Assembly: GCF_003334355.1 (NCBI RefSeq) | Contig: NZ_QOWP01000029.1 | DNA: 46,566 nt | Strand: one strand, 5' to 3' | Source of the DNA: Escherichia coli | GTDB lineage: Bacteria; Pseudomonadota; Gammaproteobacteria; Enterobacterales; Enterobacteriaceae | In this document: piece after piece, positions 31,532 through 34,500 of the stretch | Position numbering within the stretch: the first letter of the stretch is position 1 | Layout: each line of letters begins with the position of its first letter | Position numbers: made by a program

Positions 31532-34500
31532 ATTTGCTTAACGTAGAGTGAAGATTAACCTATCTGCCCATTCCCCAAATGTTTAACGCGGCGCTTAACT
31601 TCTTCCTGCTTACCGGCGTTAAATGGACGTGCATCCGGGCTACCTAAATATCCGCACACGCGGCGAGTCACCGACACACGGGAGGCGTCATGGTTACCAC
31701 ATTTCGGGCAAGTGAAGCCTTTGCTGGTGCACTCGAACTCACCGGTAAAGCCACACTCGTAGCACTCATCAATCGGTGTATTGGTGCCGTAATACGGTAC
31801 ATGCTGATAGCTGTAATCCCAGACATCTTCCAGCGCCTTCAGGTTGTGCTGAATGTTTGGATACTCGCCGTAGCAAATGAAACCACCGTTCGCCAGCGGC
31901 GGGTAAGGCGCTTCAAAGTCGATCTTGTCGTACGGGTTCACCTTCTTCTCCACATCGAGGTGGAAACTGTTGGTGTAGTAACCTTTATCGGTCACGCCCG
32001 GCACCACGCCAAACTCAGCAGTATCGAGACGGCAGAAGCGGTCGCACAGGTTTTCACTCGGCGTGCTGTAGAGACTGAAACCATAACCCGTTTCTTCTTT
32101 CCACTTATCCACTGCCTGACGCAGACGTTCAACAATGGCGATACCTTTCGCGCGAAGCTGCTCGTTGTCGTAAACATGCTCGCCGCCGAACAGCGCGTTA
32201 ATGGTTTCGTGGATGCCGATGTAACCCAGCGAAATAGACGCACGACCGTTTTTGAAGATTTCAGAAACATCATCGTCAGCATTGAGACGCACGCCACAAG
32301 CACCTTCCATATAGAGGATCGGGGCCACGCGCGCTTTCACGCCTTCGAGACGAGCGATACGGGTCATCAGCGCCTTACGTGCCAGCACCAGACGTTCATC
32401 CAGCAGCTTCCAGAAGGTGGCTTCATCGCCTTTTGCTTCCAGAGCAATACGCGGCAGGTTCAGGCTGATCACGCCGAGGTTGTTACGACCATCGTGGATC
32501 TGCTCGCCGTTTTCATTTTCCCACACGCCGAGGAAGCTGCGGCAGCCCATCGGGGTTTTAAACGAACCGGTGACTTTCACTACCTGATCGTAGTTCAGGA
32601 TATCCGGATACATGCGCTTGCTTGCGCACTCCAGCGCCAGCTGTTTGATGTCGTAGTTCGGATCGCCTTTTTTATGGTTCAGACCATCGCGAATCGCAAA
32701 CACCAGTTTCGGGAACACCGCAGTTTTACGGTTTTTACCGAGGCCTGCGATACGGTTACGCAGGATAGATTCCTGAATCAGGCGCGATTCCCAGCTGGTG
32801 CCCAGACCAAAACCAAAGGTTACAAACGGCGTCTGACCGTTGGCGGTGTGCAGGGTGTTTACTTCGTACTCCAGCGACTGGAAGGCATCGTAGCACTCTT
32901 TAATGGTACGAGAGTTAGCGTAGCCTTCGGCGTCCGGGATGTTCCACTCTTCTGCGGTCTTGCGATGTTTGTTGTAGCTGGCGGTGACAAACGGTGCCAG
33001 CACTTCATCGATACGGTTAATGGTGGTGCCGCCATAAATATGGCTGGCGACCTGAGCAATAATCTGCGCAGTTACAGCGGTTGCCGTAGAGATCGACTTC
33101 GGCGGTTCAATCTCGGCGTTCCCCATTTTAAAGCCCTGGGTCAGCATGCCTTTCAGGTCAATCAACATGCAGTTGAACATCGGGAAGAACGGCGAGTAAT
33201 CGAGATCGTGATAGTGAATATCGCCACGCTCATGTGCCTGCACCACGTCACGCGGCAGCAGGTGCTGGCGTGCATAGTGTTTAGCCACGATCCCGGCCAG
33301 CAGGTCGCGCTGGGTTGGAATCACCTTGCTGTCTTTGTTGGCGTTTTCGTTGAGTAACGAGGCGTTGGTCTGCTCGACCAGACCACGGATCTCCTGGTTC
33401 AGGCGACCGCGTTTTTCACGTTCAATGTCGCGATCGTGACGGTACTCGATGTAAGCACGAGCCAGTTGTTTGTATGGACCCGACATCAGCTGGTTTTCAA
33501 CTGCGGTCTGGATCTCGTTGATATCCACCTGGTTGCGGCCCTGCATCTGCTCGCTGACAACCGCAGCAACAGTGGCGCAATAATCGGCATCATCGACTTC
33601 CGCTGCTTTAGCTGCACGCAGAATCGCTTCTTTGATGCGCTCTGATTTAAACGGCACTTTGCAGCCGTCTCGTTTCATCACATGCGGTGTCATGATCGCT
33701 CCATATTTTTAAGAACAGGTTATCCACAGAAATTGGGAAAGGCGTTTTCCGGTTTTTTCGTTTCGTTTTCCGGTGCTTTCCGCAATCGCCATCCGCTTAT
33801 CCACAACGCCGCACCTTTTTCGTGGGGAGCTGTAGTAGCAATTATAGTCGATTAATACAACATATTGGGTTGGGACGCATTTTAAAGTCTATATATAGTG
33901 CTTTGCATCAAGGATGTTTGAACTTTTTTTGATGTAGCTCAAAGTAAAAAGCAGAGCGTACGGATGACGGGCGCTACAGCGTTATGTAAATTTTTTAATG
34001 AATTTGCTGGTTGAAAAATCAACAAAAACAACATGCTGACAGACAAAACCCCGGAATGACCGGCATTACCGGGGCTTAGGGAAGATTTACTTCTGTAACC
34101 ACCAGACAGCCTCAAAAGGCCGTAAATTCATGGCACAGGGTTGTGGTGAGGCTTCTTCGTAGTTATGCATCACAAGCTGCCAGTTGCCGCGCATTTGCCC
34201 TGGCTGCCAGGGTTGGATCCCACGGCTAAGGTTGGCAATGACCAGCAAGGTTTGCCCCTTCCATTCACGGCGATAGCACCACAATACAGGGCTGTTTGGC
34301 AGCAGATCCTGGTAATTGCCCCATGTCAGAACGGCTTCTTGCTTACGCAGTGCGATTAACTTTTGGTAGGTGTAAAACACCGAGGACTCATCGGTCAGCG
34401 CGGCTTCTACGTTGATTTGTTGATAGTTATCGCCCAGGCCAATCCACGGTTCGCCAGCCGTAAACCCGGCATTATCGCCGTTGCTCCATTGCATGGGCGT

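What the first reader, a model, noticed from the sequence alone, without database searches (positions are those of the whole stretch)
33694..34086. Long nrdD upstream region with a candidate FNR site
A 393-bp non-coding region lies upstream of nrdD. ttgatgtagctcaa (33929-33942) matches the FNR consensus TTGAT-N4-ATCAA at 9 of 10 positions, and a second weaker half-site region lies just upstream on the plus strand (gcatcaaggatgtttgaa, about 33904-33921). This fits anaerobic activation of nrdDG but leaves a long 5' leader of about 200 nt that could hold further regulation.
Basis: partly seen in the sequence, partly recalled or inferred. Interest (0 to 1): 0.3.

Follow-up and report, generated by a model that had tools for sequence, protein, structure and literature searches.

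The report
Known E. coli nrdDG promoter region
This is the well-studied control region of the E. coli anaerobic ribonucleotide reductase genes: the flagged sequence is the proven FNR oxygen-sensor site, and the long leader holds NrdR and DnaA sites already described, so the finding is correct but ordinary.

Summary
The window is E. coli chromosome, and 33694-34086 is the 393-bp treC-nrdD spacer, with genes on the minus strand. It differs from MG1655 at 3 bases, none in a site.

TTGATGTAGCTCAA (33929-33942) is the published FNR site centred at -64.5. It is a top PWM hit under an FNR ChIP-seq summit.

These positions put the start at about 33871, giving a 178-nt leader. The leader's conserved features are protein sites on DNA, not an RNA switch:
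- NrdR box 2.
- Two exact DnaA boxes (33797-33805, 33720-33728), the only two in 46.6 kb, lying under a published DnaA ChIP-seq peak.

Across 77 other Enterobacterales loci, FNR, NrdR and DnaA sites are footprint-conserved while the rest of the leader drifts. Rfam and RNAalifold find nothing; one stem between the DnaA boxes has weak support.

Verdict: already known, low interest. Still open are how DnaA acts from inside the leader and how FNR activates from -33.5.

The parts
34041..34077 (-). treC intrinsic terminator: hairpin (core GCCCCGG...CCGGGGU) followed by UUUUGUCUG.
   Evidence: MFE -17.1 kcal/mol, z = -2.99, 0 of 200 shuffles fold as well. It starts 10 nt after the treC stop. Other genera have different hairpins at the same place.
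33929..33942 (-). Distal FNR site, centred at -64.5 (TTGAGCTACATCAA on the nrdD strand); the finding's 14-mer.
   Evidence: 9 of 10 match. (published FNR-binding oligo; sites at -64.5 and -33.5). (FNR ChIP-seq summit maps to window 33935; PWM 15.68 bits, same 14-mer). (TTG..C....TCAA kept across genera).
33898..33911 (-). Proximal FNR site, centred at -33.5 (TTGATGCAAAGCAC), 31 bp from the distal site.
   Evidence: In 42 of 52 Enterobacteriaceae-type loci a pair of FNR-like sites lies exactly 31 bp apart, and most carry TTGATGCAAATCAC with 1 mismatch.
33886..33901 (-). NrdR box 1 (GCACTATATATAGACT), at -30..-15, overlapping the proximal FNR site by 4 bp.
   Evidence: the published 57-bp NrdR-binding oligo (KD about 150 nM with ATP/dATP) is identical to window 33907..33851; the same overlap with FNR is described in Salmonella. 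Nearly invariant.
33879..33884 (-). -10 hexamer TAAAAT of the FNR-dependent promoter. There is no recognisable -35.
   Evidence: Sequence. TTARAAT is invariant in 22 genera. It lies at -13..-8 of the start inferred from the published site positions. The consensus scan finds no minus-strand sigma-70 promoter, as expected for an activator-dependent promoter.
33871..33871 (-). Inferred transcription start (+1), giving a 178-nt leader (33871..33694).
   Evidence: Derived arithmetically from the published centres at -64.5 and -33.5, both of which give +1 = 33871. Not measured here.
33855..33870 (-). NrdR box 2 (ACCCAATATGTTGTAT), at +2..+17, 15 bp from box 1.
   Evidence: oligo identity; 15-bp linker stated. 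Conserved.
33841..33847 (-). Conserved -10-like element CTATAAT (CTAYnAT) at +25..+31. Role unknown.
   Evidence: C144, T145, A146 and T150 are invariant and A149 nearly invariant in 22 genera. No data on function.
33797..33805 (+). DnaA box 1, exact TTATCCACA (TGTGGATAA on the nrdD strand), at +67..+75.
   Evidence: one of only 2 exact boxes in 46.6 kb (0.32 expected). Invariant in 22 of 22 aligned genera. Present as one of two direct boxes in 46 of 52 Enterobacteriaceae-type loci.
33776..33781 (-). 5' arm (GGAAAG) of a possible stem between the DnaA boxes.
   Evidence: weak, suggestive covariation only.
33736..33741 (-). 3' arm (CTTTCC) of the same possible stem.
   Evidence: 72.8% paired against 61.4% in shuffles (0 of 500) and at most 63.2% when slid; best helix in an unbiased search, reached by 2 of 200 permutations.
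33709..33728 (+). Double DnaA box: weak box TTAAGAACA (33709-33717), 2-bp spacer, exact box 2 TTATCCACA (33720-33728; +144..+152).
   Evidence: the published ChIP-seq table lists tTTAAGAACAggTTATCCACAg for the nrdD peak (62-fold over control). The peak coordinate 4462739 maps to window 33772. TGTGGATAACCT is invariant, and the following GTT is kept in most genera.
33699..33702 (-). Shine-Dalgarno GGAG, 5 nt before the nrdD ATG (33693).
   Evidence: Sequence; invariant.

Best explanation
The region is the treC terminator followed by the known nrdDG promoter and leader of E. coli.

Layout on the nrdD (minus) strand:
- treC terminator.
- Conserved AT-rich upstream DNA.
- FNR site at -64.5, which is the finding.
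- FNR site at -33.5.
- NrdR box 1, overlapping the proximal FNR site and the promoter spacer.
- -10 hexamer TAAAAT, then the start at about 33871.
- NrdR box 2 at +2..+17.
- A 178-nt leader carrying DnaA boxes at +67 and +144, then the SD and ATG.

Shown elsewhere:
- Without oxygen, [4Fe-4S]-FNR dimers occupy both sites and activate transcription.
- NrdR loaded with ATP/dATP binds the two boxes and represses.
- DnaA occupies the leader in vivo.

Inferred: DnaA bound inside the transcribed leader lowers nrdDG expression, most simply as a roadblock to elongating RNA polymerase. This would couple anaerobic dNTP supply to replication-initiator status, as DnaA does at nrdAB. The leader therefore works as a DNA platform for proteins rather than as a structured regulatory RNA.
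For: Identity: the spacer is in 5426 of 5426 E. coli genomes, and all sites are identical to MG1655.

FNR:
- The published FNR oligo and site positions match the window.
- The ChIP-seq summit 4460925 (v2 coordinates; offset 1977, confirmed by the 14-mer coordinate) maps to window 33935, the centre of the site.
- The nrdD and nrdG expression values in that study's supplement, 0.36 and 0.27, read as lower expression without fnr.

NrdR: the published binding oligo is identical to the window, and box mutations derepress in Salmonella.

DnaA:
- The only two exact boxes in the window lie in the leader.
- The ChIP-seq peak is 62-fold and its summit lies between the boxes.
- NrdD is overproduced in a DARS2 deletion and at very low DnaA levels.

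Footprinting:
- In 22 aligned genera the FNR, NrdR, -10 and DnaA elements are invariant or nearly so, while the intervening leader is unalignable but keeps its length.
- 46 of 52 Enterobacteriaceae-type loci have two direct boxes 76-79 bp apart.
- 21 of 25 loci from other Enterobacterales families also keep exact DnaA boxes, in a different geometry.

No RNA element:
- No Rfam hit with E below 0.6.
- Leader fold z = -0.76.
- Alifold gives -3.5 kcal/mol with no covariation.
Against: - The transcription start was not measured here. I could not read the primary papers (Boston & Atlung 2003; Roca 2008; Torrents 2007) and rely on later papers that cite them.
- Site positions -33.5 and -64.5 are not canonical class I or class II positions, and a 2023 paper calls the activation mechanism 'a remaining mystery'.
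- The direction and mechanism of the DnaA effect are untested. NrdD also rises when hyperactive DnaAcos is induced, so the proteome effects could be indirect, through NrdR or replication stress.
- A weak covariation signal for a stem between the DnaA boxes leaves room for an RNA-level component.
Confidence: 0.9

Rival explanations
1. The leader DnaA boxes are mainly a chromosomal DnaA-binding or titration site (datA/DARS-like reservoir) that happens to lie in the nrdD leader. They have little direct effect on nrdDG transcription.
For: ChIP occupancy (62-fold) is far higher than at the accepted regulatory targets nrdA (14) and dnaA (5). The reported proteome changes in NrdD are correlative.
Against: The boxes keep a fixed position relative to the nrdD promoter and SD in 46 of 52 Enterobacteriaceae-type loci. 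Other families also keep boxes in the nrdD leader despite rearranged geometry, which argues for linkage to nrdD itself. nrdAB, the aerobic counterpart, is DnaA-regulated.
Confidence: 0.15
2. The leader also encodes a cis-acting RNA element: a stem-loop between the DnaA boxes that acts as a pause, attenuator or stability element. Regulation would then be partly at the RNA level.
For: - The named helix GGAAAG/CTTTCC is 72.8% paired against 61.4% in shuffles (0 of 500). Its covariation score is 0.446 against 0.217, better than all slid registers.
- The same helix is the top hit of an unbiased anchored search (2 of 200 permutations).
- Spacer MFE mean z is -0.95 on the sense strand, -0.51 antisense and -0.41 for a control region.
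- In other families a clearer hairpin sits between convergent DnaA boxes: 19 of 20 fold, with 83.6% paired against at most 47.8% when slid. In some it is followed by a T-run.
Against: - No Rfam family matches.
- RNAalifold finds no conserved structure.
- The z-scores are small.
- The helix was derived from the sequences tested, and those sequences are related.
- The E. coli stem is not followed by a U-run.
- Two lineages (L048, L049) lack this stretch entirely.
Confidence: 0.15
3. A second promoter uses the conserved -10-like TATAAT (33846..33841). A start near 33834/33833 would place the FNR sites at about -71 and -102, which are class I-type positions, and NrdR box 2 over its -35 region.
For: CTAYnAT is conserved in 22 of 22 genera with the T-A...T pattern typical of -10 hexamers. 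The published positions -33.5 and -64.5 are non-canonical, and their mechanism is called unresolved.
Against: The literature consistently reports a single start giving -33.5 and -64.5. There is no -35 match (CCCAAT or ACCCAA). No TSS data could be retrieved. The element could instead be a sigma-70-dependent pause site or part of the NrdR-contacted DNA.
Confidence: 0.08
4. The 14-mer is a chance match to the FNR consensus with no function.
For: The number of matches with at most 1 mismatch in the window is within the chance range (4 against 1.62).
Against: Direct FNR binding in vitro and in vivo at this exact sequence, dependence of nrdDG expression on fnr, and conservation with a fixed 31-bp partner site.
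Confidence: 0.01

Closest known systems
E. coli K-12 nrdDG promoter (Boston & Atlung 2003; Roca et al. 2008; cited in PMC10425943 and PMC3688515)
   Same: Same locus. All FNR, NrdR and DnaA sites, the -10 and the SD are base-for-base identical to MG1655. The published FNR and NrdR oligos match the window.
   Different: Three SNPs outside any site (34035, 33982, 33922). One of them (33922, T for C) lies between the two FNR sites and is the single mismatch to the published 54-mer.
E. coli nrdAB (class Ia RNR) promoter, regulated by DnaA and NrdR
   Same: An RNR operon with paired NrdR boxes and a double DnaA box bound in ChIP-seq. The logic is the same: dNTP supply is tied to nucleotide pools and to initiator status.
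   Different: Here the DnaA boxes lie inside the transcribed leader (+67 and +144) and 77 bp apart. At nrdAB, to my knowledge, they are adjacent boxes upstream of the promoter (from memory, not checked here). nrdDG additionally needs FNR.
Canonical FNR-activated promoters (class II at -41.5; class I at about -61.5 or -71.5)
   Same: TTGAT-N4-ATCAA inverted repeat, weak or absent -35, anaerobic activation.
   Different: Tandem sites at -33.5 and -64.5. The proximal site overlaps the spacer rather than the -35, and how RNA polymerase is activated is stated to be unresolved.
DnaA-box transcriptional roadblocks (e.g. the asnC/mioC region; Schaefer & Messer, recalled from memory)
   Same: High-affinity DnaA box within a transcribed region, downstream of the promoter.
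   Different: No experiment shows blockage at nrdD. Two boxes with a conserved 76-79 bp spacing and a possible stem between them are not features of the classical examples.

Membership tests
FNR (CRP/FNR-family) activator site | Inverted repeat TTGAT-N4-ATCAA | tested here: met
   33929-33942 matches 9 of 10 positions. 33898-33911 matches 8 of 10 in E. coli and 9 of 10 in most other genera.
FNR (CRP/FNR-family) activator site | FNR occupancy and FNR-dependent expression | not testable with these tools
   Taken from the literature: SEC-SAXS and EMSA binding; a ChIP-seq peak in all five columns of the peak table, whose summit maps to window 33935; nrdD and nrdG expression values of 0.36 and 0.27, read as fnr mutant relative to wild type.
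FNR (CRP/FNR-family) activator site | Site centred at a position from which FNR can contact RNA polymerase (about -41.5, or -61.5/-71.5...) | tested here: inconclusive
   The published centres are -33.5 and -64.5, which are non-canonical. The start site itself could not be verified here.
FNR (CRP/FNR-family) activator site | Conservation of site and spacing in orthologous promoters | tested here: met
   42 of 52 Enterobacteriaceae-type loci have two FNR-like sites exactly 31 bp apart. Core bases are invariant in 22 genera.
NrdR operator | Two 16-bp AT-rich palindromic boxes, 15-16 bp apart, overlapping an RNR promoter | tested here: met
   Boxes at 33901..33886 and 33870..33855 with a 15-bp linker. 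Window 33907..33851 is identical to the published NrdR-binding 57-mer. Conserved.
DnaA regulatory site (double DnaA box) | 9-mer TTATCCACA with a second box 2-3 bp away; DnaA bound in vivo | tested here: met
   Exact boxes at 33720-33728 and 33797-33805. Box 2 has the 6-of-9 partner TTAAGAACA 2 bp away, as listed for the 62-fold ChIP-seq peak. I found no convincing partner for box 1 by eye.
DnaA regulatory site (double DnaA box) | DnaA-dependent change in target transcription | not testable with these tools
   Only correlative proteomics exist: NrdD is up in a DARS2 deletion and at low DnaA.
Riboswitch or other cis-regulatory leader RNA | Conserved secondary structure with covariation, or a match to a described family | tested here: not met
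   Rfam: nothing with E below 0.6 and none in 6 orthologous loci. Leader z = -0.76. Alifold gives -3.47 kcal/mol with 0 covarying pairs. Only one weak helix.
Intrinsic terminator (treC) | GC-rich hairpin followed by a U-run just after the stop codon | tested here: met
   -17.1 kcal/mol, z = -2.99, tail UUUUGUCUG. The simple scan missed it because of the internal bulge.

The most novel reading that the evidence does not exclude
The nrdD leader may be a conserved DnaA-gated checkpoint on elongation. DnaA bound at two boxes held 76-79 bp apart (or, in Yersiniaceae, Pectobacteriaceae and Hafniaceae, at convergent boxes) would flank a stem-loop and stop or attenuate transcripts already started by FNR. 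Anaerobic dNTP synthesis would then be licensed by replication-initiator status at the level of elongation rather than initiation. A conserved -10-like element at +26 might contribute a pause or a second start.
Probability: 0.25. Interest if true: 0.4.

Novelty: already known. Interest (0 to 1): 0.12.

Why it matters
As a discovery it does not matter much. The FNR sites, the NrdR boxes and DnaA binding at this locus are all published.

Its value is as a clean positive control: a reader working from sequence alone picked out a real, experimentally proven FNR operator.

The comparative work here adds three modest points:
- DnaA boxes in the nrdD leader are kept across Enterobacterales, in two geometries.
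- Box position and spacing are conserved while the surrounding leader sequence is not.
- The leader shows no convincing RNA switch.

Two open questions remain attached to the locus: how FNR activates from -33.5 and -64.5, and what DnaA does from inside the transcribed leader.

Tried and rejected
- Consensus promoter scan: no minus-strand sigma-70 promoter found, and the treC terminator was missed. This is uninformative for an activator-dependent promoter.
- Rfam at permissive E-values: only two chance-level hits, both on the wrong strand and in irrelevant families. No hits in 6 orthologous loci.
- Single-sequence fold of the leader: not more stable than shuffles.
- RNAalifold on 19 leaders: no structure. 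On the 20 non-Enterobacteriaceae modules it only paired the two DnaA boxes with each other.
- Primary papers (Boston & Atlung 2003, by PMC id and by DOI; Torrents 2007): not held.
- Independent start-site evidence from genome-wide TSS supplements (Salmonella PMC4643027 and PMC6333337; E. coli/Klebsiella PMC3415461): no nrdD entry retrievable. One literature search for anaerobic dRNA-seq data gave nothing useful.
- A third NrdR box 31 bp downstream of box 2: considered, but the sequence there (TTGCTACTACAGCTCC) does not resemble a box.
- The palindrome GTTGATTTTTCAAC (34023..34010) as an extra FNR site: rejected, because its half-site spacing is 2 bp too short.
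Full report
**What the window is.** The 393-bp query is found at 100% identity in E. coli, and some version of it is in all 5426 complete E. coli genomes. Annotation of a matching genome, and of MG1655, gives the gene order treB-treC-(393 bp)-nrdD-nrdG-cybC. In the window these genes are on the minus strand: treC ends at 34087, nrdD runs 33693..31555 and nrdG 31396..30932. 'Upstream of nrdD' therefore means higher coordinates. Window coordinate = MG1655 (NC_000913.3) coordinate minus 4428967. The spacer differs from MG1655 at three bases, 34035, 33982 and 33922, none inside a recognised site.

**Checking the observation.** TTGATGTAGCTCAA is at 33929-33942 and matches TTGAT-N4-ATCAA at 9 of 10 positions. 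By count alone this is not remarkable. There are 4 hits with at most 1 mismatch in 46.6 kb against 1.62 expected, and 34 against 22.5 at 2 mismatches or fewer. It contains ATCAA (33907-33911), but the rest of it (tttgaa) is not part of a site.

**What the FNR elements are.**
- A 2023 structural study of FNR used a 54-bp nrdDG promoter oligo that equals the window's minus strand at 53 of 54 nt. It states that the promoter has two FNR motifs centred at -64.5 and -33.5, and that FNR dimers occupy both.
- In that oligo the motifs are TTGAGCTACATCAA (window 33942..33929) and TTGATGCAAAGCAC (33911..33898), 31 bp apart.
- Both centres give the same start, +1 = 33871, and hence a 178-nt leader. TAAAAT (33884..33879) sits at -13..-8.
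- Genome-wide data agree. Myers et al. list the very same 14-mer at 4460919 (old coordinates) as a 15.68-bit PWM site under a ChIP-seq peak present in all five columns of their peak table. They tabulate nrdD and nrdG expression as 0.36 and 0.27, which I read as fnr mutant relative to wild type.
- That 14-mer coordinate fixes the old-to-new coordinate offset at 1977. The ChIP summit 4460925 then maps to window 33935, the centre of the site.

**What else is in the spacer.**
- NrdR. The published 57-bp NrdR-binding fragment (KD about 150 nM with ATP/dATP) is identical to window 33907..33851. Its two boxes are GCACTATATATAGACT (33901..33886, -30..-15, overlapping the proximal FNR site by 4 bp) and ACCCAATATGTTGTAT (33870..33855, +2..+17). 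The Salmonella work describes the same overlap and derepression on box mutation.
- treC terminator. A hairpin at 34077..34046 plus a U-run is a good intrinsic terminator (-17.1 kcal/mol, z = -2.99).
- DnaA. The only two exact DnaA boxes (TTATCCACA) in the whole window both lie in the leader, at 33797-33805 and 33720-33728 (0.32 expected). They are in the same orientation, at +67 and +144.
- DnaA binding in vivo. A 2024 DnaA ChIP-seq study reports a 62-fold peak 'upstream of nrdD'. It gives the double box tTTAAGAACAggTTATCCACAg, which is window 33708-33729. Its peak coordinate maps to window 33772, between the two boxes.
- DnaA and expression. Later work treats nrdD as part of the DnaA regulon. 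It reports NrdD overproduction in a DARS2 deletion and at very low DnaA levels.

**Comparative test.** A scan of one genome per species with the NrdD N-terminus returned 80 Enterobacterales loci, of which 77 could be anchored at the nrdD start and were analysed.
- In an alignment of 22 genera, the invariant or near-invariant columns fall on the FNR half-sites, both NrdR boxes, TTARAAT, a CTAYnAT element at +25..+31, the two TGTGGATAA boxes (the second extended to TGTGGATAACCT), and the SD/ATG. The 40-nt and 68-nt stretches between them are essentially unalignable but keep their length.
- Of 52 Enterobacteriaceae-type loci, 42 have two FNR-like sites exactly 31 bp apart. 46 have two direct exact DnaA boxes 76-79 bp apart.
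- In 25 loci from other families (Yersinia, Serratia, Pectobacterium, Dickeya, Hafnia, Edwardsiella and others), 21 keep exact DnaA boxes, but differently arranged. NrdR box 2 abuts TTATCCACA-N3-(T)CATCCACA, then comes a GC-rich hairpin, then an inverted TGTGGATAA about 30-80 nt before the start codon.
- A few lineages lack the boxes. In two of them (L048, L049) the leader is about 105 nt shorter, so the module is an add-on to a core FNR/NrdR promoter.

**Is there a leader RNA element?**
- Rfam finds nothing credible in the window region or in six orthologous loci.
- The E. coli leader folds no better than shuffles (z = -0.76).
- RNAalifold on 19 leaders gives -3.5 kcal/mol and no covariation.
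- One helix between the DnaA boxes has weak support: GGAAAG 33781..33776 with CTTTCC 33741..33736. It is 72.8% paired against 61.4% in column shuffles (0 of 500), has a covariation score of 0.446 against 0.217, and beats all slid registers.
- The same helix is the top hit of an alignment-free anchored search (2 of 200 permutations).
- The spacer is slightly more stable than dinucleotide shuffles on the sense strand: mean z -0.95, against -0.51 antisense and -0.41 for a control region.
- These tests are not independent of phylogeny or of how the helix was chosen, so I call this suggestive only.
- The hairpin in the other families is clearer. 19 of 20 fold, and 83.6% of cells pair against at most 47.8% when slid.

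**How it most likely works.**
- Shown by others: FNR binding at both sites and FNR-dependent expression; NrdR binding; DnaA occupancy.
- Inferred here: the start and leader length come from the published site positions. DnaA most plausibly acts negatively from within the transcribed leader, as a roadblock, paralleling DnaA control of nrdAB.
- Against over-interpretation: the DnaA effect on nrdDG has not been tested in cis. NrdD also rises when hyperactive DnaA is induced. The site is bound more strongly than classical regulatory targets, so a titration role cannot be excluded.
- The non-canonical FNR positions remain mechanistically unexplained in the literature. The conserved TATAAT at +26..+31 would, if it were a promoter, put the FNR sites at class I-type distances. 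I could find no TSS data to test this.

**Verdict.** The feature is already known, and interest is low. The only possibly new material is comparative: conserved leader DnaA-box geometry, a possible stem between the boxes, and a conserved -10-like element. All of it needs experiments.

Noticed in passing
window 33841-33847 (minus strand, +25..+31 of the leader): A -10-like CTATAAT (pattern CTAYnAT) is conserved in 22 of 22 aligned genera, just downstream of NrdR box 2. It could be a second promoter, a sigma-70 pause element or extended NrdR-contact DNA. A start about 7 nt downstream would put the FNR sites near -71 and -102.
   Followed up: partly
window 33776-33781 with 33736-33741 (minus strand): A possible stem, GGAAAG/CTTTCC (GGGAAG/CTTCCC in Salmonella and Citrobacter), lies between the two leader DnaA boxes. 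Covariation is weak but consistently better than controls.
   Followed up: partly
L056-L081 (e.g. L064:1411-1474, L069:1411-1474, L074:1394-1458): In 19 of the 25 loci from other Enterobacterales families (Yersiniaceae, Pectobacteriaceae, Hafniaceae and relatives) the nrdD leader carries a 57-66 bp module. It reads TTATCCACA-N3-(T)CATCCACA, then a hairpin with compensatory changes (sometimes followed by a T-run), then an inverted TGTGGATAA. There is no Rfam match.
   Followed up: partly
L048 and L049 (about 1357-1500); also L047, L051, L068, L071, L078, L079: Some lineages lack the leader DnaA boxes. Escherichia sp. ESNIH1 and Pseudescherichia vulneris have a leader about 105 nt shorter, with the FNR sites at -144 and -113 from the ATG, showing that the DnaA module is dispensable.
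   Followed up: no
window 34019-34030, 33985-33991, 33958-33974 (minus strand): Three conserved blocks lie upstream of the distal FNR site and are shared across many genera: TGTTTTTGTTGA, ATTTACA and GCGCCCGYCATCYGTAC. No regulator is assigned to them. The E. coli palindrome GTTGATTTTTCAAC (34023..34010) overlaps the first block.
   Followed up: no
window 33922, 33982, 34035: The only three differences from MG1655 in the 393-bp spacer. The one at 33922 (T for C) lies between the two FNR sites and is the single mismatch to the published 54-bp FNR oligo.
   Followed up: yes
window 30501-30887 (+): An intact 128-aa ORF sits at the cybC position downstream of nrdG. cybC is annotated as a pseudogene in MG1655 but as an intact cytochrome b562 gene in the matching strain.
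   Followed up: no
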